DNA of 64,000 bases from Blasia pusilla (lineage: Eukaryota). Positions 1-46,025 of the stretch are shown in pieces; position 1 is the stretch's first letter, and each line of letters starts with the position of its first letter. The stretch spans positions 34,658,001-34,722,000 of the forward strand of contig CM114271.1 of the NCBI GenBank assembly GCA_050084515.1, given 5' to 3'. A program made the translations under genes and the position numbers. Below the pieces are notes generated by a model. The model worked only from the letters and a program-made list of their open reading frames with translations, made no database searches and was not told where the DNA came from.

Positions 1-981
1 TCCCGTTGAGGCTTTCAGGTATTTGAATTTTGAGAGTCCGTCTCGTTTATATTCCCGATGAATTTTTCATCACCCACTTTTATTCATGCTCTCTTTCCGC
101 TCCTCAGGAATGGGAAGGTGAAAGCTCTTGCTTTCACCTTTCCATGTCCTTTCCCTACTCATTTCTAGGAACTAAGGGAGAAAAAGCCTCAATAAAAAGT
201 GGGTGATGGAAAACCCATCATGAATACAAAAGAGGGGGACTCAAAGAGTTGAGTATGTTAAAGACTCAACAGAAAAAAAAAAGGGGCACCCCCTTACTGG
301 CTTAAACTTACCAACAATATAGAAAATATTAACACCACCTAGAGAGATATGACTACCACTAGTGACTGGAGTTGAGTTTGCCCCATTAGCTTGGGCACAA
401 CAAAAAAGAATTGTAATAATTAAGGACAACCCATTTCTCGAATGAACCCACGTGACACAATGCCTCTAAAAATTGTATGGGCTCCCATCATCAAAGAAGA
501 TTGGAGCCCATTATTAAGGGAGATAACTTGGGAGGAGAAAGAGGTAAGCTCTCTCCAGGTGAAGGTGAAGATTTTAGTGGAAAAAAGCCATCATCCAACT
601 CCCTTGAAAATGCATGTGCATCGGAAGGAAGGTGAAGGTGAAAACTCACGTCCAAATACGATCGCTAAAAGATTATCACGAAGCGTAGGTTCCTTCGTTA
701 AATCTCAAAGTTCCTGGCCATGGCTGAACGTTCATTGCGTGGGGTTGCTACGGCCGTTCCATAGATATACCAACGTGGGCATTTTTCTCACGCAGACGCT
801 CCAAGAGTTTGGCCGGAACTGTCGAAACCTTTCGATGCAGAAGGGTTCTTGCAACGCTCTCCAGTAGTACGTGGATGCACACACCCGCGGGAGGTTTGCG
901 TTTGTGGCTGCTTGGCAGCACGCATGGTGTACCGACTGGACCCAACATTGAGGTAGAAGGCGCGCAGCGAGTCAGTCGGTG

Positions 982-4954: not shown

Positions 4955-6091
4955 TTAAGCGTAGGCTCCGCTGCTCAACAAGTAGGCTTCTAAACCGTGG
5001 AAGAGTTGGTCAAATCCACCCTTCGCTTGCTCAAGAATGGTTTCGGCGGCATCACCTCCCCCAGAATAATCCAGAGTGCTTAGCACTCTCACCTTGTCGG
5101 CACCCTCGGCGAAGAAGCTCACCGTGGATTGCCACTTGGTGAAGCCCGCGGCGAGATGCCCTCCTTCGATCTCCTCGGTGACCAAGGTCTTGGTTTCCTG
5201 GTTGATGCTCACGAGCCTCTCCTTCACGTAAGCGCCCTCAGGAAGAGCTGCGAAAACAACCACAACCGTCACAAAAATTGCACCACGAGCCCACCTATCG
5301 ATCGGGGCTTCAACTTCTTACGTCAAGAGAACTTTCCTGTTCAATTTCCCCAACCCCTACGGCTGTCAGCGATGGCGAGTTGGTTGAATCTGGCAGCCGC
5401 CGAGCATCGCGATGAGCTAGAGCTGCACTCAATTGATTTCTTAGGTGGCCCTCTTTGCGATTCACAGAAGTCCACGTTAATTTGCGTCGCTTGCCATTGA
5501 GAGATCTCGCAATGGTATTTGAACACCACTATAATTTAATTTCAAAAGTTTCCAGCACACGAATGTTCTTCTCTACCCAGGTTTTCATTCATACACTTCA
5601 ATGACATTTTTATTCTGACCAAGCTCAACTCTAGCATTAAATTAAATGGCGTTCTATAGCGCGACGACTTCACAATCGGTCTATGTACTTCACCATAAGA
5701 TCAGGTTTAGCTAAATGACGCTGATTACCTCCATCCAGAGTAATGACCGGTGCAACTCTGCGGATGAAAGACGCTGCGGACTCTAGCCTTCCAGATCTAG
5801 AGCTCCGTTCTTTCCCTCGGGTCCCAATTTCAGAAACTAGACCTCGGTAAAGAAGAGACAGGTGCATGACCTAACCGGTAGATGATGTGGAAGACGGGAG
5901 CGGACAGATCTTTTACCTGACCCGAACTTGATGAGACTCACGGAGCCAACCTGTCCATGCGTGCCCTGAATTATATCGATGCTTGCCATGAAGTGAGGGG
6001 CAATTTTGGGGAGGATATCTTTGGCATCCTTCAAAGCCGCCCAAATGCGGGACGCTGACACTCCCAGCACCAACTCATGTCGCAACGACAT
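4955..6091 (-). CDS. PR-10 / Bet v 1 / MLP-like (SRPBCC/START fold) protein, 2 exons: 6091-5917, 5247-4955; ~155 aa
   Basis: MSLRHELVLGVSASRIWAALKD...LPKIAPHFMASIDIIQGTHGQVGSV (Gly-rich loop). Phase-1 GT-AG intron 5916-5248. Exon 2 reads YVKERLVSIN...IEGGHL...LEAYLLSS. Length and single phase-1 intron are typical of the PR-10 family. Confidence 0.88.
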
Positions 6092-12000: not shown

Positions 12001-12402
12001 TTTATTCATTATTCACTATTCAACTTTATCCACTATTCACTATTCAACACTTGCTCGTTGTTACCAATCAAAATCAAATCGTCAATTAAATGTCCCTCAA
12101 TTCTATGTGAATATTGTGAAGGATTAGAACTATAAGCTAGTCTTAAATCTAAGAAATAGAGAAATATACTTTTGTCAAGGAATGTGACCTTAAATTTTTT
12201 TCAATCAAGATTTTCGTAAATAGATTAGATTTCTTGATAAAGCAAGTATATATAGAACATCTATGAATCTAAAATTACTAATTCACATGCTAGATAATGG
12301 AAGAGTAATAAGAATTTCACCTATTTGAATGATTCAATGATGTGTATCATTTCTTATCACTAGAATTTTTGGTACTAGTGAAAGCTCCTACGATGCACAA
12401 GG

Positions 12403-12901
12403 TGTCAGGTCTTTTAGGATAGATCGGTGAGATCTAGTGGAGGACAGGCTCAGTAGGTCGAAGATGACCTGCTGAAGTCCCGAGAAACCAGAGAGAGCAG
12501 GTTTCCCCTTTGTTTCAGCTCATTTGGAGCCACATTGAGGAACTTACTATTTTAGGTAAGTACCATTATAAGTATGTGATCAACTTTCTATTTTTGGTTA
12601 GTGGCCCTTGACCTCCTACATCACGTCAAGAGCCAAGGAGGTGACTTGGGAGCATAGGTCACCATGAAGAGAGCTTGGGAGAGGGGAGGGGTATATCTCA
12701 AGGAGAGAGAGTTTGAGAGCTCATTCTCTTTTTGTTGAACCTCTTGGCATGAGGTGGTGGAGCTATGGTCTTGCTTGCCTTGTGTGTGCAACCCAAGCCT
12801 CTCATTAGGAGAATGGGTTTGGTTTGACATGGAGAGAGATATGTGAGAGTGCACACATATGAGAACTATGGTGTTGTGAGAGAAATTGGATCTTTATTTT
12901 A
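12403..12901 (+). repeat. Terminal repeat A1 of element copy 1
   Basis: Aligns by eye along its whole length to 20511-21029 and to 38890-39404. It has a ~20-bp deletion near its 5' end relative to those copies. Confidence 0.92.
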
Positions 12902-15890
12902 CAAAGAGAGAATGAGTGAGTGAGAGAGCTTCATGAGGGAGCTCGTTGGTTGCTCGATGTTTAGGGCAAGTTGGGGGACCGTGTTCCTGCTTCATGGCTC
13001 ATGGGAGTGCTCACCGGAGCAAGATCCGTGCGAGTTTGCTATTTTTCTTTGCTGATTTTTTGTACGGGATAGTGGCACGCGGAAGCGCAACCTAATTTTT
13101 TAAAGGAATTGAGTATGGGGGCGGATTACTCCATGCCGGTGCTCTCGGGAGCACCATGTAATTTTCTGATTTTTGTTGGGAAAAATCAGCGTAGAAGCGC
13201 TCCCAAATTTTGTGTAGGAGAACGAGACATTGGGCTTTACGACTGTCCCCGTCAATTTTTAATAGAATGTTCGATTCAAAATATTTTCACACCGTCGTAG
13301 ATCGTGAAGCTGTGCAATAAACGGTGCGCAATTTGGAGTTGCGAGCAAAAAGTTATGATCAATCTTGCCATTACTAGGCGATTTTTTGGGTTAAAAACCC
13401 TAAGCCAGCCGCCGCGCCGATGGCGGCCATCGCCGTCATACTCACCTTCAACAGTCTGCCATCAATGGTCAACCATCACCGTCAAAGGTCAACCGTCATT
13501 ATCAATGGTCCACCGTCCACCGCCCACCGTCGGCCACCGCCTAGCGCTGCATAGAGCCGCGTTCGGCCGTTGTCCACCCTTGGTTGCCATTGCCGCCATT
13601 ACGGAATGGAGGGTCTTCCACGACCACCATTGATTCTTTGACTTGCGCCACCACCATGTACTTTGGTTTGGCTGCCACCGTCATCGCAGTTTCGTCATCA
13701 ACTAGTGATGGCAGGCGACCTCGGGTTATAGTGTTTGAGTTTTTATTTCATGTTGCTATGTTGTGATTGGTAGCCGCTCGACGACGATCGAGTACTGTGT
13801 CGTGATGCCCGTAGCCGCAATGCGCCGCCGATTGCCGCGATGTGTCGCTTGTGGCCGCACTGCACCGTCTCGATCGCGGAGCCGCTCCTTCACTAAGGAG
13901 CAGAGCGTGTGAATTTCTGATTGAGGAGGGTATGTCGCTGAGTGCCGCACCCCATTCCCGAGTTCCGTGTCGTTTGTAGCCATTCCGTGTGGCCAGTGCC
14001 GCACCGGACCGCCGAACGTGCACCCCACATCGAGGAGGTTTGAGCAGCGTCAGTACGAGAGGAGTACGACTTGCTGATTGGAGGAGTTGTCTTCATGACC
14101 GAGTTGGGGTCGAGATTTGCAGTTTCCGAGAAACAACATTGACATTATTTTCAGGTTACCCATTCTGGTCTCTTACCCTGCACGTGTGAGGGATTTTCGG
14201 GTATTGGGAAGTTATTTGGGATATTGGGTTTCGTGTTGATGCTAGGAGCATCGATGATGTATGGTTTTAGGGGACATAGAACTGTGTGGGATGTCCAGAG
14301 TTGAGGATGGTTTGTCGATGAGACAATAGACCAGTTGATTTGCCGCACCACGATGCTTGTTGCCGCACAACACACGTCTTAGTGAGAGAGTGTAGATTGA
14401 GTGCCGCATGTTTAGTCTGAGTGATTGAGGGATTACTCGCAAGATTGAGAGTGATCATGTGAGAGGCACGAGGGCCATCATAGCGTCCTTTCAGGATTTT
14501 GAGAGGCGAGGTAGTGGACCTGAGAGTAGCTCTGGAGGGTTTACCAGGAATGGTATGAGGTTTCTAGGGTCTCCATGAGAGAGACCACCTCGATCTCCTT
14601 CTGTGTCATCTTCAAACGAGGGGGAGCATGTAGAGGAGTGTGTTAGTGATCCACCCTACACATTGAGTGGTCCTACCAGTTGGGCGTACGAGATGGACGA
14701 CATGGATAGAGGACCGCGTAGGTTTTCGGGTGCTGTAGGCACCATAGAGCTACAGCGAGTGCGACGATTCCTATTGTTGATGCTTATGAGGGGCATGTAT
14801 CGAGCATGTTGTTGGGGGCGGCCACCATTGTGTACCATGCTCCTTTATTTTCTGCTTCCGATGTTATGACATTGAGAGGTACGCCCACCGAGGTTTTTTG
14901 ACTGGCCGCTACGCTATGTGAGCGTGGAGTTGGAATTCCTGCATCACGTTCAGAGGTGATTGCAGAGGAGGTGATGGACTTGCCCTTGGAGCAGAAGCTC
15001 GGGCCGTCCACGTTAGATTTATGGCAAGTTGTGGCTACTAAGATGGCGGAGATGCCCGCTAGACCCGCGATAAAGCGTGCCATGGCTTCCCCTGGTGTTT
15101 TGTTGCTGGATAACCGGGGAGAGGTCTTTCAGTTGGTGAGTCCCAGAGGTAGAGCTTTTAGTCCACAACGTGTCTTGTTGGATTCAGGAGCGCAACCCCT
15201 AATGTTGGGGAAAGCGTCATTTAGAGGATTGGGCTTGGCGAGAGCCAATGTGGAGCATTGTCCATTTCGGATACAGACATCCTTGGGTGGATCGAGTACC
15301 ACAGAGTATATCACCCGATAGGAGATCGTGGTGAGGATTCGCCCGGGACATCCTACAGATGAGTCCATGGTGCGAGCCAAGGGGATAGTGACTGATGCAG
15401 AGTCCTACAACGTCTTGGTTGGTGGAGCAGTGTTATACCTGATGGGGTTTTCCCTGGATTACTGGGAGGATTCAACGTCCTAGAGACCAGGATGGCAGTC
15501 AGGTGATAGGCGCCTTAGCTCATTACCTGTTCGATTCACAGGTGCAGTGATCGAGCGACGGCCAGGAGAGATGGCGACCTTAGCAGCTTTAGAAGTGCCA
15601 TCACTTGGCCTAGTGATTTGATTGAGGGACATGTCCATGTAGAGGATACTCTTGTTCCTGACATTTCTATGGAGAGGAGTGTCATGGTAGCCGCATTAGT
15701 CCGTGGAGGAGAGGTGCCGCTTTGGGGCTCGACTGAGGAGCTTCGACGCTTAGCCACTGAGCATGTGCAGACCGCGTGGAGCGAGACGTTTGCATCAGAG
15801 TGTAACGGGTCAGAGGAACCTTAGGTAGGCAAGAGTGATGCTATGAGCCCTTTGGACACAACCGCGATTGTGTGGTGCATTCCAGAGGAG

Positions 15891-16830
15891 GGTATTCGGA
15901 TGTTGGATCTCTTTGGAGGGATCAACATTGGGTTAGCTGTTGTTTTGCACATTGGAATGTGCGTGCAACAATACCTGTATGTGGAGATTGATGATGTTGC
16001 GAGGCACACTTCACTTCACCATCTGGCGCTGTTCCGCCTCCATTTTCCCAACTTATTGTCTGCGTCCGCCATTCATGGTTACCAGAGTTCCCTATCGAGG
16101 GACATTTCATTGTTGGGGGAGCAAGACTTGGAGCGGATAGGGACCATAGACTTGCTCATTGCTGGTTGGCCATGTTAGGGCCAATCGAGTGTTGGACGAG
16201 GAAGCGGGTTAGCTGACACTCGGTCCAGGTTCTTTTGGGAGATGATGCAGATCTTGCAACATTTACAAGAGCATCAGCCTCGTTCTCCATCATACATTTT
16301 GGAGAATGTGCCAATTTTGGGTGATCCGAGGTCCCGCGTGGTGACGAGTGCACATCAGGTGCGGATTGGCCCGGCAGTGTTGTTAGATGCGGCAAGTGTA
16401 GGTTCTAGAGCACATCGCCCGCATCTTTGGTGGACCAACTTGATACGACATGAGGTGTTGCGGAGGGCTTATGCGAGAGTAGAGCGTCCCTCCGATTTGT
16501 TGGTGGATTCTATATTGGATCCGGGCCGTCGATCACAGGCAGTGAGACATGATGATCGACCGCCGTTGACTGTGATCAACACGATTGGCATGCCATGAGC
16601 AACCTTTCCCACATTGGTGACTTTTCCCGCTTCCTATGCATTCAAGGAGGCCGGACCTGGCTTGGTTTGGGATGACCACATACATAGGTTGGTGGAGCCC
16701 AATGCCGATGAGCGAGAGCGAGCAATGGGATTCCCCACAAGAGTGACGGCAGTATCGTCACTATCAGAGGCATCATGACGTTATATCTTGGATCAGGCGA
16801 TGGACCTTAACTGCTTGATATGGATTTTCA
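15891..16830 (+). pseudogene. DNMT3-like C5 cytosine DNA methyltransferase domain within the retroelement polyprotein (copy 1)
   Basis: All in one frame with stops. Motif I IRMLDLFGGINIG; II YVEID; IV IDLLIAGWPC(*=Q)GQS; FFWEMMQIL; VI YILENV; VIII LDAASVGSRAHRPHLWWTNL; IX ERERAMGFP; X RYILDQAM. Confidence 0.9.
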
Positions 16831-17239
16831 GCTTAGGAGTAGTTGAGCAACGTCATTTGAGGATGCAACAGATCACAAAATTTGTGTTGGTGAGCCCCAT
16901 TCCTACCGAGACGGTTGAGGCAATGGCTGGGGGCGAGACCCGAGGACATCGACACACCAGGGGTGATCGGGAAGAGACACCCTGGGACTTCTTGGGATTT
17001 TTTGCAGGTACGCAAGGAGATGATAGCCACAACATTGAGCGTGGTTCTGGGTACTACACGTGGAGATGAGAGTTCTATTTTCCGAGACGGGGTAGCACCA
17101 TAGCAACCACAGACATCTGCGCCGAAGAGTCCTACCGTAGTCACAATATGGAAGACTTGGGAGCCAGATATGGGCCCTAAGTTGACAGGAGGAGAGTGGC
17201 GTCAGATACACCAATTCCTTAGGAGTTATAGGAGTTGTT

Positions 17240-20200
17240 TTGCATTTAGTATGCATGATTTGGGTACGCTGAAGGGTCCAGGGATCCGCATTGAGTTGTC
17301 AAGTGACACGCCAATCTTCTGACAATCCTTCAGGTACAATGACATGGAGAGGGCTCTGATTTAGAGTAGGAGCCAAGACTTGGTTGGAGCAAGACTTGTG
17401 GAGATGTCACATGGAGAGTATGCATTTGCCACTATCATGCCCGGCAAGAAGGATGTGCATTGCAACTAGACGGATGGGCGGATGTGTGGAGATTACCAAC
17501 CTATCAATCGGCATACGAAGTTCGATAGGTATGCCATGCCCACCCTTTGATGCAATTGGGCAGCAAAGGACTTCAGTTCATTGGATTTGCGAGCCGGATA
17601 CCATCAGATGTCTATCTGATTGGTGGACAGGCAGAAGGCGGAATTTTGGGGCATCGATCCTCACGGGAAGGATTGTTTGTACCAGTGGCGGTTCTTACCA
17701 TTCAGGTTAAAGAACGCCCCGGCTGAGTTTCAGAGGGTCATGGATAGGATGTTGGCAGGTTTGGATTTTGCTTGGTATTTTATTGATGACATCGTAGTAT
17801 TTAGCGCCACAATTGAGGAGCATGAGCAACATCTAGAGGAGGTGTTTCGACGATTGCAGTTACATGGGTTGAAGCTACATCTAGGAAAGTGCAAGTTCTT
17901 CTACGGCTAGATTGCATATGATATACCTTGGGGGCCTTGGTATGCAATTAACGAAGGTAGAGGCTATTTCACGCATTCCACGTCCTACAGATGTGAGTCG
18001 AGTTCGTGCATTCATGGGATTGCCAAACTTCTATCGACGGTATGTCAAGGGTTTCAGTTCAATTGCGAAGCGGCTAACCTTGATGACCAAGGTGGATCAG
18101 GAGTGGCACTGGTAGAATCAGCAAGTAAGAGCATTTCAGATGCTCAAGGACATATTGATGTCCGCGTCTATATTGAGGAGACCGATCAGGGGGCGTCTTT
18201 TCCAGTTGCATACCGATTGGAGCATGTTGGGGCTTGGAGCCGTGCTCACCCAGCATGAAGATGATGGCAGAGAGTTTGTGGTGGCTTACGCTAGTCGCTC
18301 GAACAACGCTGCAGAGGTGAAGTATAGGTCATATGAGGGTGAGTGCTTGGCTGCAGTGTGGGCTGTCGCACATTTTAGATGTTATCTATTCGGCAATCCC
18401 TTTACCATCATTACTAATCATCAGCCACTTAAGTGGTTGATGGAGTCCGACAAGCTTACAGGGAAGTGTGCGAGGTGGGCTCTTTTGTTGCAGGAGTATG
18501 ACTTCCAAGTGGTGCATAGACCTCGGACGCTCAACCAGGATGGAGATGGTTTGAGTTGTAGCCCATGCCAGAGTCAGCGAGATGCGACTGGAGCTCGTTG
18601 GCATGATGAGAGTGATGAGGAGTTGGTGCGAGGATGGCATGCCTTAGCCTATTTGGGCTTGTTGGCTATGGAGAGCCAAATTGCTAAGACTTCGATGGCG
18701 AGGTCTGATGGAGAGTCCTTAGATCTAGAGGCCGGTGAGGAGACGACAGGTGGCCAAGACATTCACGACGATGGAGTGGTCTTGGAGTACTTGCGTATTG
18801 GCAGCGTCGCGAGCACATTGGGTGCTAGAGAGCGGGATTGGATCCTACAGCGAGCCAGATGGTTCCGGTGGGAGGGCACATATGTGTTGCGAGTATGGGA
18901 GGATAGTAGAGTGTGTGTAGTGCCTCATCCTTTGCAGAGAGCACGTTTGGTGCGTCATGCCTACAAGGAGTTGGATCATTTTGGAGTGAAGCGGACGTAC
19001 AACTTGCTCCTAATTCAGTACTAGTGGCAAGGCATGCAGACTGACATTCAACAGTATGTTGCCAGATGCATGGTGTGTGATCGAGTTCGAGCATCATTCA
19101 ATGCTCCGACTCTAGAATTGCATCCACTTCCGATCATGGGCTTAGGTTATAGATGGAGTTTGGATTTTGCAAGTTCTTTGCCTTTGACGGAGCGCCATAG
19201 TCGTTATGTGTTGGTGATGGTCGAACACTTCTTAAAGTGGATAGAGTTATTTGCATTGCCTGACAAAGCGAGTGAGGGAGTAGCGTATGCCTTCCTAGAT
19301 GGAGTGTTGAGTCATTACGGTGCACCAGCTGAGGTGTTGACACACCAGGGTACAGAGTTCCGTGGGGAGTTTCAAGCCTTGTGTGATTAGGCACTAATCG
19401 ACCACTGCACTACTTTGAGAGATCATCCTGAGGCAGATGGACTAGCGGAGCGGGTTGTGCACACAGTGAAGAGAGGACTGCGTAAGTATGGCTTGCAGAG
19501 AGGTCATCTAGGAGATTGGGACCTTCAGTTGCCGTGGTTGGCGATGGGATACAGATTCAGCAGTCATGCGTCCTTAGCGTCTTTCTCACCGTATTTTTTG
19601 CTTTATGGCCGAGAGCCACATTTACCTACGGCCATTCGTTGAGATGTTGGTGAGGTGTTGAAACTTTATGACCTTGATGTATGGATGCGAGCATGTTCTC
19701 AGAGGGCTATGTTGTTTTGGAGAGTGATGCCCATGGCGTTTGAGAACTTGGCGATTGCGCAACATCGGGATACGTTGAGGTATGCGACTATTCGGGGAGA
19801 TGGTTATCGACCTACTATCCGGAGGTTTCATTAGGAAGACTATGTCTACTTGCATTAGACGGCACCCACGACTTTAGATGTGACTGTAGGACGCACAATC
19901 TTGAGAGTGCGTGAGGTTTTTCCATCCGGTGTTCTCTTATTGGAGGGACGCAATGGTATGGTTTGGAAGGACCATGTGCGTAAGTATGCGCCATATCATC
20001 TTCCGAACATTGACAGTATAGTTGATTTGAGCTTAGCAATAGTTTCTGCAGGCTTGCGGTGTATATTGTGTGGTTCTGCCCGTTGTGCAGCCACTATGCT
20101 GGTCTGTGATGGATATTGGAGAGGATGGCATATGGCATGTTTGACGCCACCTCTCACTAAGGTTCCTCAGGGATGATGGATGTGTCCCAGATGTACATAG
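17240..20200 (+). pseudogene. RT-RNase H-integrase-PHD portion of pol (copy 1), disrupted
   Basis: ORF fragments 17620-17910 (RT), 18140-19024 (RNase H, INT zinc-binding), 19034-19642 (INT core) and 19880-20176 (PHD). Domain order RT-RH-INT is the Gypsy order. Confidence 0.92.
20060..20194 (+). other. PHD finger at the integrase C-terminus
   Basis: CILCGSARCAATMLVCDG(Y<C)WRGWHMACLTPPLTKVPQG(*)WMCPRC matches the Cys4-His-Cys3 PHD consensus. Confidence 0.88.
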
Positions 20201-20380
20201 AGTAGGTAGTTCTACATTCCGACTTGTATCTGTGATATGGATGACAAGAAGGCAACTAACAATGGGGCCACATGAGCACCTGGCCTTCTTGCTCTTAGCG
20301 TCCGAGAGATGTATGTCATGGTAGGTAGGGATAGATGGCTATCTGGAGTTAGAGGGACCTAACCACTAGCTAAGGGGGCG

Positions 20381-20508
20381 ATTGGAGATATTTTGGTACT
20401 TCTCGTCTCGTTTTTTGGATGCCATGAGTTAGCATGGGATCGTGCGTGTTTGTGTGTGTGTTTGGTGACAGCGATGTATATTGTGTAGCGATGTGTATGC
20501 ACACGATA
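20381..20508 (+). repeat. Repeat B1 (128 bp), preceded by a polypurine-tract-like AAGGGGG (20372-20378)
   Basis: ATTGGAGATATTTTGGTACTTC...GTGTATGCACACGATA aligns to 21029-21156. Confidence 0.9.
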
Positions 20509-20510
20509 AC

Positions 20511-21029
20511 TGTCACGTCTTTTAGGATAGATCGGTGAGATCTAGTAGAGCGCCTTAATGAGTAGTTGAGGACAGGCTTAGTAGGTTGAGGATGACCTAC
20601 TGAGGCCCCGGGAAACTTGAGAGAACAGGTTTCCCCTTCGTTTTGGCTCATTTGGAGCCATATTGAGGAACTTACTATTTTAGGTAAGAACCACTTTGAG
20701 TATATGATCGACTTTATATTTTTGGTAAGTGTCCCTTGACCTCCTACATCACGTCAAGAGCCAAGGAGGTGACTTGTGAGCATAGGTTACCATGGAAAGA
20801 GCTTGGGAGAGGGGAGGGACATACCTCAAGGAGAGAGAGCTTGAGAGCTCATTCTCTTTTTTTTGAACCTCTTGGCATGAGACGGCGGAGCTATGGTCTT
20901 GATTGCCTTGTGCGTGTAACCCAAGCCTCTCATTAGGAGAGTGGGTTTGGTTTGACATTGAGAGAGACACGTGAGAGTGCACACATGTGAGAACTATGGT
21001 GTTGTGAGAGAGATTGGATCTTTATTTTA
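20511..21029 (+). repeat. Repeat A2
   Basis: TGTCACGTCTTTTAGGATAGATCGG...GGATCTTTATTTTA is a direct repeat of 12403-12901. Confidence 0.92.
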
Positions 21030-21156
21030 TTGGAAATATTTTGGCACTTCTTGTCTCGTTGTTTGGATGCCATGAGTTAGTATGGGATCGTGCGTGTTTG
21101 TATGTGTGTTCGGTGACAGCGATGTATGTTGTGTAGCGATGTGTATGCGCACGACA
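21029..21156 (+). repeat. Terminal repeat B2 (128 bp)
   Basis: ATTGGAAATATTTTGGCACTTC...GTGTATGCGCACGACA is a direct repeat of B1 and is followed by the AAGG TSD. Confidence 0.9.
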
Positions 21157-21599
21157 AAGGAAATTCATATTAATGACAACCTTTGACATGTAATTACCCT
21201 GTGACTTATGGCTTAACGAATCCCCAAAACTCTTAATTGACCTTAAAAATTCCGATCAATTTTGAAGAATCTTATTGGCTGAAAGATTAAGCAATGTTAT
21301 TAGCTAAGAGGGCCAATTGTCAAAAGCCAAAAGGAGAGATGCTCGGAAATCAAATGGGCACTCTCCAATAATAATACAAATTATCAATGGTTTCATATTC
21401 ACAAAACTTTCTTCATAAGAAATCATGTGATTTACACTTGTAAATTGATATACTTATATCACTAATGGTACTTGGGCTCTCAACTCTATGATATTTCCCA
21501 TGATATAACTCATAGCCAACCCATTCTCATCACTATAGTAATAATCCACATAATTTCATTGTGAAAGAACTTCACGTCTTATGCCTTGAAGTAATCCTT

Positions 21600-38889: not shown

Positions 38890-41800
38890 TGTCACGTCTT
38901 TTAGGATAGATCGATGAGATTTCGTAGAGCGTCTTTGCGAGTAGTGGAGGACACGCTTAGGAGGTTGAGGATGACTTGCTGAGGCCCCAGGAAATGTAAG
39001 AGAGCATGTTTCCCATTCGTTTCGGCTCATTTGGAGCCATATTGAGGAACTTAATATTTTAGGTAAGTATCATTTTGAGTATATGGTTAAATTTGTATTT
39101 TTGGTAAGTTTACCTTGACCTCCTACATCAGGTCAAGAGCCAAGGAGGTGACTTGGGAGCATAGGTTACCATGGAGAGAGCTTGGGAGAGGGGAGGGGTA
39201 TACCTCAAGGAGAGAGAGCTTGAGACCTCATTCTCTCTTTGTTGAACCTCTTGGCACGAGGCGACGAAACCATGGTCCCTTGTCTTGTGAGTGTAACCCA
39301 AGCCTCTCATTTGGAGAGTGGGTTTGGTTTGACATGGAGAGAGATATGTGAGAGTGCACACATTTGAGAGCTATGGTGTTTGAGAGAGATTGGATCTAGA
39401 TTTACAAAGAGAGAATGAGATGAGTGAGAGAGCTTCATGGGGGAGCTTGCTAGTCATTCGCTGGTTTTGTAGGTTGGGGATTGTATTTCCCATTTAACGG
39501 TTCATGGGAGTGCTCACCGAAGCCGGAGCCGGAGCCGGAGCCGCTCATTTTTTATGTTTCCTTTGCCGATTTTTCGTGTGGAAGAATGGCGCGTAGAAGC
39601 GCTGCCAAATTTTTGATAGGGATTGAGTATGGGTGCGAATTTCTCCATGTTGGTGCTCTCAAGAGCACCATGTAGCTTATTGATTTGTGTTTTCACAGGT
39701 TTTACAATTTTGTTGGGCGAAATCAGCGCGGAAGCGCTGCCAAATTTTGTGTAGGAGAAAGAGACATTGGGCTTTACGACAATCCCCTTCAGTTTTTACT
39801 GGAATGTCCGATTCAAAATATGTTTTGATATTGTTGTAGATTGTGAAGTTGTGCAGGCTGTGCAATAGACGGTGTGCAATTTGGAGTTGCAAGGAAAAAG
39901 TTGTGGTCATTCTTGCAAAACTGCCATTGCTAGGCGATTTTTAGGGTTAAATTGTTCAAACCCTAAACCAGCCGCCGCGCCGGCGTCGACTGTCGCCGTC
40001 ATAATCACTGTCAATGATCCACCATCAATGGTCAACCATTGCCATTGACGGTCAACCATCACCATCAACGGTCAACCGTCACCGTCAACGGTTCACCGTC
40101 CACCATCGGTCGCCGCCGCCGCCTACTACTTCTCAGATCCGCATTCGGCCGTTGTCCACCCTTGGTTGCCATTGCCACCATTGCGGAGTGGAGGGTCTTC
40201 CAAGATGACCGTTGATTTTCTGACTTGCGCCGCCACCACGTACTTTGTTTTGGCCGCCATCGTCATCATAGTTTCGTCATCAACCAGTGATGGCAGGTGA
40301 CCTCGGGTTATGGTGTTTGAGTTTTCATTTCACGCTGCTATGTTGTGATTGGTAGCCGCTCGATGATGATCAAGTACCATGCCGTGACACCCGTACCCGC
40401 AACGCGCCGCCGATTGCCGTGCCGTGTCGCTCGTGGCCGCACCGCACTGTCTCGATCGCGGGGCCGCTCCTTCACTAAGGAGCACAGCGTGGGAATTTCT
40501 GATTGAGTACGGTATGCCGCCGAGTGCCGCACCCCATTTTATCGAGTGCCATGCCGTTCTGTAGCCGTTTTGTGCCGCCAGTGCCGCACCGTACCGCTGG
40601 ATCCGCACCGCACATTGAGGAGGTTTGAGCAACGTCAGTATAAGAGGAGTACAACTTGCTGATTGGAGGAGTTGTCTTCACGACCAAGTTGGGGTCGAGA
40701 TTTTCAGTTACCGAGGAGCGACATTGACATTATTGTCAGGTCATCCATTCTGGTCTCTTACCCTGCACGTCTGAGGGATTTTCGGGTATTGGGAAGTTAT
40801 TTGGGTTATTGGGTTTCGTGTTGATGTTGAGAGCATCGATGATGTATGAGTTTAGGGGACATAGACCTATGTGGGATGTCCAGAATTGAGGATGGTTTGT
40901 CGATGAGATTATATATCAGTTGATTTTCTGCACCACGCCGCTTGTTGCCGCACAGCACTCGTCTCAGTGAGAGGGTGTAGCTTGAGTGCCGCATGCTAGA
41001 TTGAGTGATTGCGTGATTACTCGCGAGGTTGAGAATGATCGTGTGAGGGGGGCACGCGGGTCATCATGGCATCCTTTCAGGACTTTGAGAGGCGAGGTGG
41101 TTGACCAAAGAGTAGCTCTAGAGGGTTTACGCAGAGTGGCCTGAGGTTTGGAGGGTCTCCACGTGCGGGACCTCCTCGACCTCCTTCTGTGTCATCTTCA
41201 GACGAGGAGGAGGGCGTAGAGGAGTTGAGTAGTGCTTTGCCACTCACATTGAGTAATCCTACTCCTTGGGCATACAAGATGGACAATTGGGGTAGAGGAC
41301 CACGTAGGTTCTCACGTGCAGTAGGCATGATAGAGTTACACGACTTCATTGCGGAGTTTAGGAGTTGGTGCGACTCACAGCGGGCTAGGAACTCTAGAGA
41401 GTTCAACCTGTTTACAACATGGAACAATATGTTCCAATATTTAGAGGGGGCACCCATGGACGATTACCATGAGTTCTCCCACAGATATGCCCAAGAGATT
41501 GAGGCATGGCGACTCTACTATGACCCATATTATGTGTCATGGACGGAGCCGTTCCCAAATGAGGAGGAGGATTCAGGAGAGGCTACTTCCTCTTCCATTA
41601 GTGATGTTTTAGGAAGGGTAACTCGCATTGGAGCAATTGCTCCATCCAGTTGGGTTCGTCCTAAGTTTAACCTCGTGGTTGAGTTCTTTGTTGGGTTGAG
41701 GGCGAGCTAGCAGGAGGTACGGACGGAGAAGTTGCGGAGTATCCATGACTTCTAGAGGCGCTCGGGTGAGAGTTTGCACGAGGCTTACACTCGCTTGCGC

Positions 41801-44800
41801 GGGTTGATCAACGTCACTCAGGGGATGATAGAGACTCAGGCTATCCAGTCATGGTACGCGATGCTGGACCGGACTGTGCGGATACGGGTGCGGGAGGGGG
41901 TACTTCTTATGAACACCTCACCTACGTTGAGAAATTTTTCTAGGACTGCCGAGAACATTGAGCGCAACATGGCGGATGAGAGCGTAGCCACCATGGGTTC
42001 TAGGCGAGAGCAGTCATGATTGCCTACACCACCAGTGCAGCAACGTGGACTCTAAGATAGGTCGACTGTGGCATCACGAGCTCAGGGAGGATACCGGGAG
42101 GCCATGCCATAGAGATCTGCTTCTTCATATGCGGCTCAGCAGCAGCCGTCTACGATTACTTGTCGGTCATCAAGTGGAGCCCATCATCAGCGCGATTGCA
42201 CTCTTCAGAATCATGGACGTGTGCCTCAACATGGAGGAAGAGATGGTGGTGCACTAGGAGGTTATTAGTATGACTATTGTCAGAGGTATGGTCACACACG
42301 CGCCAAGTGTTTCAGTTTACATCCTGAGTTACATCCGGACTGAGGGCCAGAGAGGGTACGAGAGCAAGTAGCCGATCCGGGTGGGCCTAGCTAGAGGTTG
42401 TGTACCACGTGGTCCCGTTGGGGAACGAGGAGCTGGAGTTGCCCGACAAGGTGGTGGAGTTGCCCGTGGAGGAGGTAGAGTCCCACCACCTAGACGCGTC
42501 GAGGGAGACGCCACGTGTGAGGCTAGGATGGCTGCTCAGATACAATAGCTACAGGAGCAGATTACCTCTATGGCATTGAAGTTACCCGATGCCGGATCCT
42601 TGGCATCAACAACATATGGAGCAGCCAAAGATATGAAGGATCCTAGTTGGATGTGCAGGGTTGCCCAGATGGAGGCCGCCGTAGTTGTGACGTATGGAGC
42701 AACTTTAGAGTTGGATCCACAGCGAGGGGAAGCTAGGAAACAAACTAGGCTTCCTCAATCTTTCACGTTGTCTGAGGCGTTGAGGACCTCATCGATGGGT
42801 TCTGATCAGAGTTCCCGGAGAGTTGGTGATGTTATTGGTATGCAGGCACAAAGGGCAATGGGAGAAACGAGTGCGACGAGTCCTATTGCTGATGCTCAGG
42901 AGGACCATGTCTCAAGTACGATGTTGGGGACGGCCACTATGGTGTAACGTGTTGTGCTATTTTCTGCTTCCGATGTTATGACATTGGGAGGTACGCCCAC
43001 CGAGGTGTTTTGGCTGGCCGCTACGCCATGTGAGTGTGGAGTTGGAGTTCCTACATCACGTTCAGAGGTGATTGCAGAGGAGGTGATGGACCTGCCCTTC
43101 GAGCTGATTCTTGGGCCGTCCACGTCACATTCATGGCAGGCTATGGCTGCTAGGATGGCGGAGATGCCCACTAGACCCGCGATAGAGCATGCCATGGCTT
43201 CTCCTGGTGTTGTGTTGCTGGATAACTGGGTAGAGGTCTTCCAGTTGGTGAGTCCACAAGATAGAGCTTTTAGTCCGCAACGCGTCTTGTTAGATTCAGG
43301 AGCGCAAATGATGTTGGGGAAAGCGTCATTCAGAGGATTGGGCTTGAGGAGAGCCAATGTGGAGCGTTGTCCATTTCGGATATAGACATCCTTGGGTGGA
43401 GTGAGTACCACCCAGTATATCACCCGATACGAGGTCGTGGTGAGGATTCGCCGGGGACATCCTACAGATGAGTCTATGGTGCGAGCCAAGGCGATAGTGA
43501 CTGATGCAGAGTCCTACGACGTCTTTGTTGGTGGAGTAGTGTTATACCCGATGGGGTTTTCCTTGGATTATTGGGAGGAGTCAACGTCCTACACACCTGG
43601 ATGGCAATCAAGTGATGGGCGGCTTAGCTCATTACCCATTCGATTCAAAGATGCAGTGATCGAGCAACGGCCATGAGAGATGGCGACCTTAGCACCATTT
43701 AGCACTGCCATCACTTGGCCTAGTGATTTGATTGAGGGACATGTCCATTCAGAGGATACTCCCATTTGTGACATTTTTATGGAGAGGAGTGTCATGGTTG
43801 TTGCATTAGTCTGTGGAGGAGAGGTGCCGCTTTGGGGCTCGACTGAGGAGCTTCAATGCTTAGCCACTGAGCATGTGCAGACCGCGTGGAGCGAGACGTT
43901 TGCATCAGAATGTGACGGGTCAGAGGAACCCTAGGTAGCCATGAGTGCTGCTATGACCCCTTTAGATACCATCTCGATTGTGTGGTGCATCCCAGAGGAG
44001 GGTATTCGGGTGTTGGATCTCTTTGGAGGGATCAATACTGGGTTAGCTGTTGTTTTGCAGGCTAGAGTGGGCGTGCAACAGTTCCTGTATGTGGAGATTG
44101 ATGATGTTGCGAGGCGCACTTCACTTCACCATGTGGCGTAGTTACGCCTTTTTTTTTCCCGACTTGTTGTTTGCGTCCGCCATTGGGGATTACCGGAGTT
44201 CCCTACCAAGGGACATTTCATTGTTGGGGGCGTAGGATTTGGAGCGGGTAGGAACCATATATTTGGTCATTTTTGTTGGCTGTGTTAGGGGCAATCGAGT
44301 ATTGGACGAGGTAGCGGGTTGGTTGTCACTCAATCTAGGTTGTTTTGGGAGATGATGCGGATCTTGCAACACTTGCAAGAGCATAAGTCCTGTTCTCCAG
44401 CATACATTCTGGAGAATGTGCCGATTTTGGGCAATTCGAGGTCCCGCGTGGTGACGAGTGCACATTAGGTATGCGCATGGATCGGCCTGGCAGTGTTGTT
44501 AGATGCGGCGATTGTAGGGTCTAGAGCACACCGCCCGCGTCTTTGGTGGACCAATTTGGTACCACACGAGGTGTTGCGGAGGGTATATGCAAGAGTGGAG
44601 CGCCCCTCCGATTTGTTGGTGGATTCTATATTGGATCCGGTCCATCAATCATAGGCAGTGAGGCACGATGATCGATTGCCATTGACTATGGTCAACAGGA
44701 TTGGCATGCCATGGGCAGCCTTTCCCACATTGCTGAGCTTTCTCGCTTCCTATCCATTCAAGGCGGCCGGACCTGACTTGGTTTGGGATGACCAAGTACA

Positions 44801-46025
44801 GAGGTTGGTGGAGCCCAACGCCGATGAGCGAGAGCGAGCGATGGGATTCCCCACAGGAGTGACGACAATACAGTCACTATCAAAGGCATCTTGACGTCAT
44901 GTCTTCGGTCAGGCGATGGACCAGAATTGCTTGATGTGGATTTTCAGCTTAGGAGTAGCTGAGCAATGTTGTTTGAGGATGCAACAGATCACAGCATTTG
45001 CGTTGGTGAGCCCCATGCCTACCGATTGAGACAGTTGAGGCAATGGTTGGGGGCGAGACCTAAGGAGATTGACACACCAAGGATGATTGGGAGAGACACC
45101 CTTGGACTTCTTGGGATGTTTTGCAGGTACGTTAGAAGATGGTAGCCACAACATCGAGCGTGGTTCCGGGTACTCCAAATGGAGATCCGATTTTGTAGTT
45201 GGCTGTAGGGGAGCAATCGAGTTTTGTTGTTCGAGACGGGGTTGCACCATAGCAACCACCGACACCCGCGCTGTTATAGGAGCTATTTTGCATTTAGTAT
45301 GCATGATCTGGGTACGCTAAAGGGTCCAGGGATCCGCATTGAATTGTCGAGTGACACGCCGATCTTCCGACGATCCTATAGGTACAGTGACATGGAGAGG
45401 GCTTTGATTCAGAGTAGGAGCCAACACTTGGTTGGAGTAGGACTAGTGGAGATGTCGCATGGAGAGTATGCCACTGTCATGCCCGCCAAGAAGGATGTGC
45501 ATGGCAACTAGACGGATAAGTGGATGTGTGGAGATTATTGACCTATCAATTGGTAGACGAAGTCCGATAGGTATGCCATGCCCACCCCTGAGGATATCTT
45601 TAATGCTATTGGGCATGCAAAGGTTTTCAGTTTGTTGGATCTTCGAGCCGTATACCATCAACTGCCCATCAGATTGGAGGACGGGCAGAAGACGGCATTT
45701 TGGGGCATCGATCCTCACGGGAAAGATTGTTTGTACGAATGGTGGTTCTTACCATTTTTGGGTTAAAGAATGCCCCGGATGAGTTTCAGCATAAGATCTT
45801 GGCAAAGGGTCATGGATAGGATCTTGGCAGGTCTAGATTTTGCTAGGTGTTATATTGATGACATCGTAGTCTTTAGCGCCATGGTTGAGGAGCATGAGCA
45901 GTATCTAGAGGAGGTGTTTCGATGATTGCAGTTTCATGGACTAAAGCTACATCCAAGCAAGTGCAAGTTTTTCTACGACCAGATTGAGTACTTAGGTCAT
46001 ACGATATACCCAGAGGGCCTTGGGT
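38890..46025 (+). mobile_element. Ty3/Gypsy-type methyltransferase retroelement, copy 2 (3'-truncated within RT)
   Basis: Starts TGTCACG, with repeat A at 38890-39404 and the same leader as copy 1. Gag at 41189-42560 includes a degenerate zinc knuckle, (C>Y)DYCQRYGHTRAKC, at ~42270-42310. PR VLLDSGA, MTase 44000-44950, RT YIDD at 45851-45862. Homology stops at ~46025. Confidence 0.9.
44000..44950 (+). pseudogene. DNMT3-like C5 methyltransferase domain (copy 2)
   Basis: IRVLDLFGGINTGLAVVLQARVGVQQFLYVEID; YILENV; LDAAIVGSRAHRPRLWWTNL; ERERAMGFPTG; RHVFGQAM. The PC motif region is degraded by indels. Confidence 0.88.

What the first reader, a model, noticed from the sequence alone, without database searches (positions are those of the whole stretch)
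15891..16830. Gypsy retroelement encoding its own DNMT3-like cytosine methyltransferase between protease and RT
Seen: C5-MTase motifs in canonical order in one frame (I LDLFGGI, II VEID, IV GWPC[Q]G, VI ENV, VIII DAA-VGSRAHR--LWWTNL, IX ERAMGFP, X). Known: these closely parallel DNMT3A (IRVLSLFDGIATG; DLVIGGSPC; FENV; IDAKEVSAAHRARYFWGNL; ERVFGFP). Retrotransposon-borne DNMTs have been reported in dinoflagellates and charophyte algae (de Mendoza et al. 2018, from memory), but they are not a standard domain of land-plant LTR elements. Inference: this is a TE that could methylate its own cDNA or insertion sites, either surviving from algal ancestors or independently captured. Both local copies are pseudogenised.
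Basis: partly seen in the sequence, partly recalled or inferred. Interest (0 to 1): 0.92.

Follow-up and report, generated by a model that had tools for sequence, protein, structure and literature searches.

The report
Dead Gypsy retrotransposon carrying a DNMT3-like methyltransferase
Two decayed copies of a plant Ty3/Gypsy retrotransposon that carries its own DNMT3-like cytosine methyltransferase belong to a large family, found intact in liverworts and mosses, of a kind so far described only in a streptophyte alga.

Summary
The frame at 15825-17069 passes Pfam PF00145 (41.2 bits, cut-off 22). Its best solved relative is the DNMT3A catalytic domain (E 1.3e-10).

The domain sits between a DSG protease and RT-RNaseH-integrase-PHD, inside a repeat-bounded element at 12403-21156. 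A second, truncated copy lies at 38890 to about 46024. Both copies are dead, and they share two of the in-frame stops in the methyltransferase.

It is not a captured host fragment. Relatives at 55-63% identity occur in Marchantia, Calypogeia, Riccia and Sphagnum and in moss-associated metagenomes. One natural copy, L055, has open frames: gag-PR-DNMT (1369 aa), a single in-frame TAG, then RT-RH-IN-PHD (1047 aa). The stop context is UAG-CARYYA, the tobamovirus-type leaky-stop motif. Both window copies keep it.

The family has split direct repeats (A1...B1-A2-B2), 4-bp target duplications, and dN/dS of 0.13 on the DNMT between two open copies.

The closest known thing is KnitGypsy-Dnmt3 of Klebsormidium (de Mendoza 2018). 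I found no paper naming land-plant copies.

I file it as a new member of a known kind. The land-plant range and the ORF layout are not in the papers I could search. Methyltransferase activity is untested.

The parts
12399..12402 (+). 5' target-site duplication AAGG (matches 21157-21160)
   Evidence: sequence read directly
12403..12903 (+). Repeat A1 (the 5' 'LTR'), TGTCA...TTTTACA
   Evidence: 90.4% identical to A2 over 467 bp; for the termini
12904..14810 (+). Decayed leader and gag remnant. About 1.5 kb (the CCHC part) is deleted near 14757 relative to copy 2
   Evidence: 12435-14758 matches 38942-41343, and 14756-17067 matches 42868-45186
14812..15591 (+). Aspartic protease region; DSG motif LLDSGAQ at 15175-15195
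   Evidence: 44% identical to the L039 PR region, E 5e-61. There is no Pfam hit on the window copy itself. L055 gives Asp_protease_2 at E 2e-4, below the cut-off
15885..16860 (+). DNMT3-like C5 cytosine methyltransferase domain, motifs I-X in canonical order, with in-frame stops at 16176, 16596 and 16776
17101..17109 (+). ORF1/ORF2 boundary stop in the type-I leaky context TAG CAA CCA. An indel upstream has put the DNMT frame out of register with it
   Evidence: motif definition from PMC5382211
17557..17904 (+). Reverse transcriptase (RVT_1)
   Evidence: E 3e-19
18110..18499 (+). RNase H (RT_RNaseH, RT_RNaseH_2)
   Evidence: E 1e-32
18935..19414 (+). Integrase: H2C2 zinc domain plus rve core
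   Evidence: E 9e-12 and 5e-7 (rve at 30.3 bits is below its cut-off of 32.6)
20060..20194 (+). C-terminal PHD finger, in the place where chromoviruses carry a chromodomain
   Evidence: E 1.4e-5, 25.5 bits (cut-off 24); same domain in L055, L059, P0096 and P0101
20381..20508 (+). Repeat B1, ending ...CACGATA; followed by the 2-nt spacer AC
   Evidence: 92.9% identical to B2 over 126 bp
20511..21030 (+). Repeat A2 (the 3' 'LTR')
   Evidence: (152 DNA reads begin to match at 20511, with flanks that disagree)
21031..21156 (+). Repeat B2, ending ...CGACA; this is the 3' end of the element
   Evidence: (635 + 317 DNA reads stop matching at 21156/21157)
21157..21160 (+). 3' target-site duplication AAGG
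38890..46024 (+). Copy 2: A1, gag (kept), PR, DNMT (43935-45056), boundary stop TAG CAA CCA at 45250-45258, and RT; truncated after RT. 82-88% identical to copy 1

Best explanation
Window 12403-21156 is an old, dead copy of a Ty3/Gypsy-type retrotransposon. A second copy at 38890 to about 46024 is truncated. Intact relatives of the family encode gag(CCHC)-protease-DNMT3-like methyltransferase as ORF1 and RT-RNaseH-integrase-PHD as ORF2. The two ORFs are in the same frame and are separated by one UAG in a CARYYA context.

What is shown:
- The domain is a non-permuted C5-MTase closest to DNMT3 in sequence and in predicted fold.
- It is an integral, collinear coding part of the element across many copies and hosts (liverworts, mosses, moss-associated metagenomes).
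- In at least one lineage it is under purifying selection.
- The element is bounded by split direct repeats A1...B1-NN-A2-B2, with TGTCA...CGACA termini and a 4-bp target duplication.

What is inferred:
- ORF2 is made by readthrough of the leaky UAG, so the methyltransferase would be made in Gag-like amounts and RT-IN in small amounts.
- After protease cleavage the DNMT would methylate cytosines of the element's own cDNA or its fresh insertion, de novo. My odds for this are about 0.35.
- The integrase-fused PHD finger would read histone tails to choose insertion sites.

The window copies do none of this. They carry at least 17 and at least 22 in-frame stops respectively. The two stops they share in the DNMT (motif IV PC-stop, and one before motif X) suggest that their common progenitor already lacked a working DNMT and was still copied.
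For: Identity of the domain
- PF00145: 41.2 bits against a cut-off of 22.
- A profile of 16 family members against PDB sequences: DNMT3A 4.7e-22, DNMT3B 3.7e-20, DNMT3C 2e-19, DRM 5e-11 to 2e-8, HaeIII/HhaI 3-5e-7, DNMT2 1e-5.
- AlphaFold2 model of P0004 (pLDDT 65.8). Every row printed by Foldseek down to rank 50 (some ranks are collapsed in the listing) is DNMT3A, 3B or 3C; best E 5e-15, TM up to 0.76 on the target.

Family
- 76 hits of near length and 32 longer hits.
- Named hosts: Marchantia polymorpha, Calypogeia fissa, Riccia sorocarpa and three Sphagnum species.
- 278 tblastn-confirmed stretches in JGI metagenome contigs, of which 80 were fetched.
- Profile search of 1.84 billion representatives: 544 at E <= 1e-30.

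Integral coding domain
- L055 has ORF1 976-5082 (1369 aa, no stop) with Asp_protease_2 and DNA_methylase. One TAG follows, then ORF2 5086-8226 with RVT_1, RNase H, Integrase_H2C2, rve and PHD.
- Marchantia Mp_4g09160 (P0080) aligns with L039 ORF1 in one HSP over residues 1-1242.

Ty3/Gypsy class
- The best PDB match of L055 ORF2 is Ty3 Gag-Pol, E 4.4e-98.

Leaky stop
- Of 65 anchored ORF2 starts: 6 have TAG-CARYYA (window copy 1 among them), 29 TAG-CARYYC, 9 TAA-CARYYN and 21 other.
- Copy 2 has TAG CAA CCA at 45250.
- The motif definition comes from PMC5382211 (passages read).

Selection
- L055 against L054 DNMT: dN/dS 0.13, dS 0.26.

Repeats
- A1/A2 and B1/B2 in the window.
- The same layout in L035, L050, L059, L060, L065 and L075.
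- TSDs: AAGG (window), TCTC (L035), GGTC (L059), AAGG (L050), that is 4 of the 7 elements examined.
- Genomic reads stop matching at 21156/21157 with disagreeing flanks.

Decay
-.
Against: - No canonical DNMT3, DRM, CMT or DNMT1 sequences were available for a tree. 'DNMT3-like' rests on ranked profile and fold matches only.
- No Klebsormidium sequence could be compared.
- The host of the window is coded and not identified. 'Land plant' rests on bryophyte relatives and on the plant-type TEs in the window.
- Enzymatic activity is unshown. KnitGypsy-Dnmt3 gave no methylation in yeast, which the authors called inconclusive.
- 50 of 56 DNMT copies examined carry in-frame stops. The median pairwise dN/dS is 0.48 for DNMT and 0.36 for RT-RH. 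One pair of open copies (L005-L010) gives 0.93 at dS 0.06.
- The commonest boundary context ends in C, not A (CAA CCC), so it fits CARYYA in 5 of 6 places. Readthrough was not measured.
- No canonical tRNA primer-binding site follows A1.
- The window copies share two DNMT stops. So the DNMT was not needed in cis for the step that made them, unless the stops arose in parallel.
Confidence: 0.8

Rival explanations
1. The methyltransferase is a piece of a host DNMT3 gene captured by, or nested in, these particular copies. It would not be a standing domain of the element.
For: Both local copies are broken. The domain lacks any regulatory domain of the host type, as a gene fragment would.
Against: The same domain sits at the same place in 56 copies from 80 loci plus the window, and in annotated proteins of four bryophyte genera. 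L055 reads gag-PR-DNMT as one open 1369-aa frame. No separate repeats or TSD flank the domain. dN/dS is 0.13 between L055 and L054.
Confidence: 0.01
2. The domain is kept by the element but does not act as a DNA methyltransferase. It could methylate RNA, serve as a nucleic-acid-binding or assembly module of the Gag-PR-DNMT precursor, or interfere with host DNMT3 complexes.
For: KnitGypsy-Dnmt3 gave no DNA methylation in yeast. The DNMT lies in the Gag-level ORF, an odd place for an enzyme needed in catalytic amounts. A sister lineage (L059) and the algal clade replace motif IV PCQ by ECQ or SCE. The window copies were made from a progenitor that seems to have had a stop in motif IV.
Against: In the clade that holds the window copies, motifs I, IV (PCQ), VI (ENV), VIII (RxR) and IX are invariant or nearly so. 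The fold model matches DNMT3 catalytic domains. The yeast negative was called inconclusive by its authors because human DNMT3B failed as well.
Confidence: 0.2
3. Bryophyte elements acquired their DNMT independently of the algal Gypsy-DNMT elements (convergent capture) and did not inherit it from a common DNMT-bearing ancestor.
For: The DNMT sits at different places: PR-DNMT-RT in the bryophyte clades, RT-RH-DNMT-IN in the algal clade. The two groups are split at 100/98 support. Recurrent capture is the theme of PMC5890265.
Against: Both groups carry the same unusual C-terminal PHD finger after the integrase. The bryophyte lineages share split direct repeats, a trait the Fig. 4c legend of PMC5890265 ascribes to KnitGypsy-Dnmt3. 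The algal DNMTs are found by the bryophyte profile at E < 1e-90, far closer than DNMT3A at 5e-22.
Confidence: 0.25

Closest known systems
KnitGypsy-Dnmt3 of Klebsormidium nitens (de Mendoza et al. 2018, PMC5890265)
   Same: LTR Gypsy domain set with an intronless, non-rearranged Dnmt3-type DNMT in the coding region. Evidence of purifying selection on the DNMT. Repeats 'the same as that of a DIRS retrotransposon' (legend of Fig. 4c), which fits the A1...B1-A2-B2 layout seen here.
   Different: The hosts here are land plants (liverworts, mosses). [quoted passage not shown] No K. nitens sequence was at hand, so the sequence relationship, the PHD finger and the position of the DNMT in KnitGypsy could not be compared. 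The figure and supplements were not seen.
Host DNMT3 (animal DNMT3A/B/C; plant DNMT3)
   Same: Motif order I-X is not permuted. These are the best sequence and fold matches. PC, ENV and RxR are conserved in intact relatives.
   Different: No PWWP or ADD domain and no plant DNMT3 N-terminal domain. About 21% identity to DNMT3A in the fold alignment. An insert of about 40 residues is modelled with low confidence (residues 312-350 of P0004). The domain is embedded in a retrotransposon polyprotein.
Chromoviruses (Ty3/Gypsy elements with a chromodomain on the integrase)
   Same: A Ty3/Gypsy backbone with a chromatin-reader module fused to the C-terminus of the integrase.
Split-direct-repeat retroelements (PAT-like DIRS, Ngaro; recalled, not read here)
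   Same: Repeat layout A1 - internal - B1 A2 B2.
   Different: Those elements use a tyrosine recombinase. This family has a DDE integrase with an H2C2 zinc domain, TG...CA-type termini and 4-bp target duplications.
Type-I leaky stop of tobamoviruses (UAG-CARYYA; PMC5382211)
   Same: UAG followed by CAA CCA, CAG TTA or CAA CTA at the ORF1/ORF2 boundary, with the polymerase made downstream.
   Different: It is used here by a retrotransposon between DNMT and RT. The commonest variant is CAA CCC. Readthrough was not measured.

Membership tests
C5 cytosine methyltransferase (PF00145), DNMT3 type | Pfam DNA_methylase above the gathering score | tested here: met
   Copy 1 scores 41.2 bits against 22. 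Copy 2 scores 18.9 bits, below the cut-off. L055 scores 51.1 bits.
C5 cytosine methyltransferase (PF00145), DNMT3 type | Motifs I, II, IV (PC), VI (ENV), VIII (RxR), IX, X in unpermuted order (DRM is permuted) | tested here: met
   Coordinates; alignment with DNMT3A; family alignment. In the window the codon after PC is a stop.
C5 cytosine methyltransferase (PF00145), DNMT3 type | Closer to DNMT3 than to other DNMT classes | tested here: inconclusive
   Ranked matches favour DNMT3 by 11 or more orders of magnitude over DRM, and every printed Foldseek row down to rank 50 is DNMT3A, 3B or 3C. No phylogeny with reference classes could be built, because no reference sequences were obtainable.
C5 cytosine methyltransferase (PF00145), DNMT3 type | Regulatory domains of host DNMT3 (PWWP/ADD, or the plant N-terminal domain) | tested here: not met
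   Pfam finds none in P0080, L055 ORF1 or the window. It is therefore not a host DNMT3 orthologue.
C5 cytosine methyltransferase (PF00145), DNMT3 type | DNA methyltransferase activity | not testable with these tools
   The published assay of the Klebsormidium relative was negative and called inconclusive.
Ty3/Gypsy LTR retrotransposon | Order PR - RT - RNase H - integrase | tested here: met
Ty3/Gypsy LTR retrotransposon | RT-RH closest to Ty3/Metaviridae | tested here: met
   L055 ORF2 against Ty3 Gag-Pol scores 4.4e-98, the best of 88 hits. Not tested against plant Gypsy lineages (REXdb is not available).
Ty3/Gypsy LTR retrotransposon | Two LTRs with TG...CA ends and a short TSD | tested here: met
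   A1/A2 are 90.4% identical and the TSD is AAGG. The 3' terminus, however, is B2 and not A2, because the element has split direct repeats.
Ty3/Gypsy LTR retrotransposon | tRNA primer-binding site next to the 5' LTR | tested here: inconclusive
   No TGG-type site follows A1 in the window or in six loci. Only inspected by eye.
KnitGypsy-Dnmt3 kind | Gypsy domain set plus intronless Dnmt3-type DNMT in the element's ORF | tested here: met
   compared with the text of PMC5890265 section 9.
KnitGypsy-Dnmt3 kind | DIRS-like repeat structure | tested here: met
   A1...B1-A2-B2 in the window and in 6 loci. The figure itself was not seen, only its legend.
KnitGypsy-Dnmt3 kind | Sequence relationship to the K. 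nitens copies | not testable with these tools
   No Klebsormidium protein appeared among named hits.
Chromovirus | Chromodomain at the integrase C-terminus | tested here: not met
   A PHD finger is there instead.

The most novel reading that the evidence does not exclude
An ancient Ty3/Gypsy lineage runs through green plants from chlorophyte algae (Scenedesmus 'pol') to liverworts and mosses. It is marked by a PHD finger on the integrase and a DNMT3-type methyltransferase, and in the bryophyte branches, where repeats were examined, by split direct repeats.

In the land-plant branch the methyltransferase has moved to the end of the Gag-PR frame, ahead of a tobamovirus-type leaky UAG, so it would be made in structural amounts. 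Apparently whole ORF1 copies stand in the genetic model Marchantia polymorpha. There, a TE-encoded de novo methyltransferase could be acting on bryophyte methylomes.
Probability: 0.45. Interest if true: 0.78.

Novelty: new member of a known kind. Interest (0 to 1): 0.6.

Why it matters
Retrotransposons that carry the enzyme normally used to silence them are a standing puzzle. The role of the DNMT is stated as unclear in the one paper that describes them (PMC5890265, discussion). That paper's streptophyte example is an alga without routine genetics, and its enzyme gave no signal in yeast.

If the family is present with whole ORF1 copies in Marchantia polymorpha (P0080, a cluster of 18 sequences), the question can be put to a transformable land plant whose methylome is already studied.

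Three features give concrete handles that the 2018 description does not mention in the text I could read: placement of the DNMT in the Gag-level frame, the UAG-CARYYA boundary, and the PHD-integrase.

For annotation: Marchantia and Sphagnum gene models named 'DNA (cytosine-5)-methyltransferase' or 'CCHC-type domain' are retrotransposon ORFs. They should not be counted as host DNMTs.

Tried and rejected
- Whole genome of the window: none is held.
- Host identity: runs and organism are coded. Host ORFs (BTB exon, two unnamed ORFs) gave no taxon. In the DNMT tree the window copies sit outside the Calypogeia+Sphagnum+Marchantia group, which does not name the host.
- Phylogeny against DNMT3, DRM, CMT, DNMT5 and bacterial MTases, and an RT tree against REXdb: not possible, because no reference sequences could be obtained from a tool.
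- Klebsormidium copies: not found among named hits.
- Protein Atlas: it only returned PF00145 clusters (Streptophyta; phage), which adds nothing.
- RNA, index search: no RNA holder was listed.
- RNA, laid reads: three RNA runs of the same species label gave 127, 241 and 160 reads of about 10-12 million records read each. Nearly all were 95-99% alike and mostly partial, strongest at 20126-20426, with the first mate mostly on the minus strand. I read this as low-level transcripts of related copies, not of this locus, and put no weight on it.
- Literature for land-plant Gypsy-DNMT: searches, and passages read, found none. Later papers speak only of 'streptophytes (Gypsy-DNMT3)', citing the 2018 paper. 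The library holds open-access papers only, and supplements are closed. The supplementary DNMT survey of PMC12344493 may list bryophyte copies.
- Replication model for the split repeats with a DDE integrase: I considered several and none fits, so this is left unexplained.
- Segmental duplication as the origin of the two window copies: rejected, because the flanks are unalike.
Full report
**1. The observation**

The coordinates are LDLFGGI 15903-15923, VEID 15981-15992, GWPC-stop-G 16164-16181, ENV 16302-16310, GSRAHRPHLWWTNL 16401-16442, ERERAMGFP 16710-16736 and QAMDLN 16794-16811.

It passes Pfam PF00145 at 41.2 bits, against a cut-off of 22. Among solved structures the best sequence matches are DNMT3A catalytic domains (E 1.3e-10). 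DRM2, M.HhaI and DNMT2 lie near E 0.1.

**2. The element around it**

Pfam on the three forward frames of 12400-21200 gives:
- RVT_1 at about 17557-17904
- RNase H at 18110-18499
- Integrase_H2C2 and rve at 18935-19414
- a PHD finger at 20060-20194

A DSG protease motif lies at 15175-15195.

Direct repeats bound the element. A1 (12403-12903) and A2 (20511-21030) are 90.4% identical over 467 bp. A 126-bp segment just upstream of A2 (B1, 20381-20508) recurs just downstream of it (B2, 21031-21156) at 92.9% identity. The layout is therefore A1 - internal - B1 - AC - A2 - B2.

A begins TGTCA and B ends CGACA. AAGG flanks both ends, at 12399-12402 and 21157-21160.

Genomic reads of the same species label agree on these ends. 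In one search, 635 + 317 reads stop matching at 21156/21157 with disagreeing continuations, and 152 reads begin to match at 20511. The A and B repeats are 10-30 times deeper than the interior, so many related copies exist in that genome.

A second copy runs from 38890 to about 46024. It is 82-88% identical to the first, keeps the gag region that copy 1 has lost in a deletion of about 1.5 kb, and stops after RT.

**3. State of the two copies**

Against the natural polyproteins of L039 and L055, copy 1 shows at least 17 in-frame stops and at least three frame changes. Copy 2 shows at least 22 stops.

In the DNMT of copy 1 the stops are at 16176 (TAG), 16596 (TGA), 16776 (TGA) and 17067 (TGA). 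Those at 16176 (right after the catalytic PC) and 16776 are shared with copy 2. L039 and L055 have CAA at the first site, and AGA and CGT at the second. The flanks of the two copies are unalike, so they are separate insertions.

The simplest reading is that their common progenitor already had a broken DNMT and was still copied, presumably with proteins supplied by other elements.

Changes private to one copy are mostly G>A and C>T: 18 of 32 in copy 1 and 21 of 37 in copy 2. This is the pattern expected from deamination of methylated cytosine, but I did not test sequence context.

**4. Not a captured fragment: the family**

The degenerate window protein finds 76 proteins of similar length and 32 longer ones. 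The named ones come from Marchantia polymorpha (at least 14 gene models over), Calypogeia fissa, Riccia sorocarpa, Sphagnum fallax, S. troendelagicum and S. jensenii, at 55-63% identity.

A scan of JGI metagenome contigs confirmed 278 relatives, and 80 loci were fetched. A profile of 16 members against 1.84 billion representative proteins finds 11,077 at E <= 1e-3, 2,768 at <= 1e-10 and 544 at <= 1e-30. The best 150 all score below 1e-74, and many are polyproteins of 1,000-3,400 residues. Of ten looked up, one cluster (two member proteins) carried an organism name, 'pol' of Scenedesmus sp. PABB004.

Locus L055 is the key. One open frame of 1369 codons (976-5082) holds two CCHC knuckles, a DSG protease (Asp_protease_2, E 2e-4, below the cut-off) and DNA_methylase (51.1 bits). 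A single TAG follows. The same frame then continues for 1047 codons with RVT_1, RNase H, Integrase_H2C2, rve and PHD. These contigs come from unspliced DNA, so the DNMT is an uninterrupted part of the element's coding sequence.

Marchantia Mp_4g09160 (P0080, 1278 aa) aligns with ORF1 of L039 in a single segment over residues 1-1242. Like P0081, P0003 and P0079, it ends shortly before the position of that stop.

L055 ORF2 is closest to Ty3 Gag-Pol among solved structures (E 4.4e-98), which places the backbone in Ty3/Gypsy.

**5. DNMT3-like?**

The family profile against PDB sequences ranks as follows:

| Target | E-value |
|---|---|
| DNMT3A | 4.7e-22 |
| DNMT3B | 3.7e-20 |
| DNMT3C | 2e-19 |
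| plant DRM | 5e-11 to 2e-8 |
| HaeIII / HhaI | 3-5e-7 |
| DNMT2 | about 1e-5 |

DNMT1 and CMT are absent at E <= 0.01.

An AlphaFold2 model of the natural member P0004 is moderate (pLDDT 65.8, pTM 0.69). The Rossmann core is modelled well, while an insert at residues 312-350 and both ends are modelled poorly. Every row Foldseek printed down to rank 50 is DNMT3A, 3B or 3C (best E 5e-15, TM up to 0.76 on the target, about 21% identity).

The motif order is not permuted, unlike DRM. No PWWP, ADD or other DNMT3 companion domain is present.

I could not build the proper tree, because no reference DNMT sequences could be drawn from any tool. 'DNMT3-like' therefore stands on ranked similarity.

**6. 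The ORF1/ORF2 boundary**

I anchored the start of ORF2 by tblastn in all loci and the window, then walked upstream to the first stop. Of 65 anchors:
- 6 have TAG followed by CARYYA (L039, L054, L055, L068, L069, window copy 1)
- 29 have TAG CAA CCC
- 9 have TAA CAA CCC
- 21 have something else

Most of the 'something else' group belong to a second sub-lineage (section 8). One is window copy 2, where the walk met an earlier stop. A direct pattern search shows TAG CAA CCA at 45250 in copy 2 and at 17101 in copy 1.

UAG-CARYYA is the type-I readthrough signal of tobamoviruses and others (PMC5382211, passages read).

My inference, not shown, is that RT-RH-IN-PHD is made by readthrough of this stop. 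The DNMT, which lies upstream of it, would then be made in the same amounts as Gag and protease.

**7. Selection**

Of 56 DNMT copies covered at 90% or more, 6 have no in-frame stop (L055, L054, L039, L005, L010, L059).
- L055 against L054: dN/dS 0.13 (dN 0.033, dS 0.26).
- L005 against L010, the other open pair within the dS limits: 0.93 at dS 0.06.
- Median over 585 pairs: 0.48 for the DNMT.
- Median over 130 pairs: 0.36 for RT-RH.
- The two window copies: 0.64.

So there is purifying selection in at least one lineage, diluted elsewhere by neutral decay of dead copies.

**8. Family structure**

I built a maximum-likelihood tree of 40 DNMT domains. Four fragments under 250 aa were dropped: P0025, P0094, P0047 and P0046.
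- The two window copies are sisters (100/100).
- They sit beside a group of Calypogeia, Sphagnum (which includes the main metagenome group) and Marchantia sequences (95/90 for the joint clade).
- L039 is the next branch out.
- Further bryophyte-type clades hold L055 and L059.
- A separate clade (100/98) holds the Scenedesmus protein and GC-rich metagenome polyproteins.

The clades differ in layout:
- In the algal clade the order is RT-RH-DNMT-IN-PHD, and motif IV reads ECQ or SCE.
- In the L059 lineage the in-frame stop lies before the DNMT, giving gag-PR | TAG | DNMT-RT-RH-IN-PHD, and motif IV is ECQ.
- All layouts end in the same PHD finger.

The split repeats A1...B1-A2-B2 recur in L035, L050, L059, L060, L065 and L075. 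B1/B2 pairs alone are seen in L009, L036, L048, L070 and L078. Four of the seven elements examined, counting the window, have matching 4-bp duplications outside A1 and B2.

**9. What is known**

De Mendoza et al. 2018 (PMC5890265; abstract and sections 9, 10 and 11 read) describe KnitGypsy-Dnmt3 of Klebsormidium nitens. [quoted passage not shown] It showed no detectable methylation in yeast, which the authors call inconclusive.

Later papers mention 'streptophytes (Gypsy-DNMT3)' only by citing that work. My searches found no paper naming such elements in liverworts, mosses or any land plant. None cites the Marchantia gene identifiers. This holds only for the open-access library, and supplements could not be seen.

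**10. Verdict**

The finding is a correct reading of a real feature. The window copies are dead members of a family of the KnitGypsy-Dnmt3 kind.

Four things appear new relative to what I could read:
- the land-plant range, including the model Marchantia
- placement of the DNMT at the end of the Gag-PR frame
- the leaky-stop context
- the constant PHD-integrase

What the enzyme does remains inference.

Noticed in passing
window 20381-21156; loci L035, L050, L059, L060, L065, L075: The internal B1-A2 junction reads ...ACA NN TGT..., that is, the element's 3' end joined to its 5' end with two bases between, like a circle junction. How a DDE-integrase element copies a split direct repeat is unexplained, and no tRNA-type primer site follows A1.
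   Followed up: partly
L059:5672-14987 (also L060, L062, L064, L065, L073-L080): A second moss-metagenome sub-lineage (36-40% identical DNMT) has the in-frame stop before the DNMT, so DNMT-RT-RH-IN-PHD form one frame. Its motif IV reads ECQ, not PCQ.
   Followed up: partly
proteins P0096, P0101, P0168 (Scenedesmus sp. PABB004 'pol') and others: An algal clade of the same DNMT has the order RT-RH-DNMT-IN-PHD. So the methyltransferase occupies two different places in related elements.
   Followed up: partly
protein P0018 against L055: A protein deposited as 'DNA cytosine methyltransferase [Candidatus Obscuribacterales bacterium]' from a MAG is almost identical to the retrotransposon DNMT of L055 (branch lengths 0.03-0.05). 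This is probably plant DNA binned into a bacterial genome.
   Followed up: no
window 16176 and 16776, against 44286 region and copy 2: Two of the DNMT stops are shared by the two separately inserted copies. This suggests a DNMT-defective progenitor was mobilised in trans.
   Followed up: partly
window 47285-47419: A 135-bp piece of the RNase H region (matching 18063-18197, 82%) lies inverted about 1.3 kb beyond the truncation point of copy 2.
   Followed up: no
window 51188-52645 (+): ORFs with a PIF1-like helicase domain (E 7e-19), probably a Helitron remnant.
   Followed up: partly
window 59320-60498 (-) and 62069-62758 (+): Copia-type RT (RVT_2, E 3e-57) and Copia gag (Retrotran_gag_2, E 2e-34) lie on opposite strands, so they come from two separate Copia remnants.
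   Followed up: partly
window 1632-2111 (+): An exon-like ORF with a BTB/POZ domain (E 2e-15), probably a host gene.
   Followed up: no
window 15972-16005 (loose ends): In two of the three RNA runs laid (X15 and X17), 7-9 reads match only these 34 bases of the DNMT and agree perfectly with each other in the flanks. This suggests a diverged DNMT-bearing relative is transcribed elsewhere in the same species.
   Followed up: no
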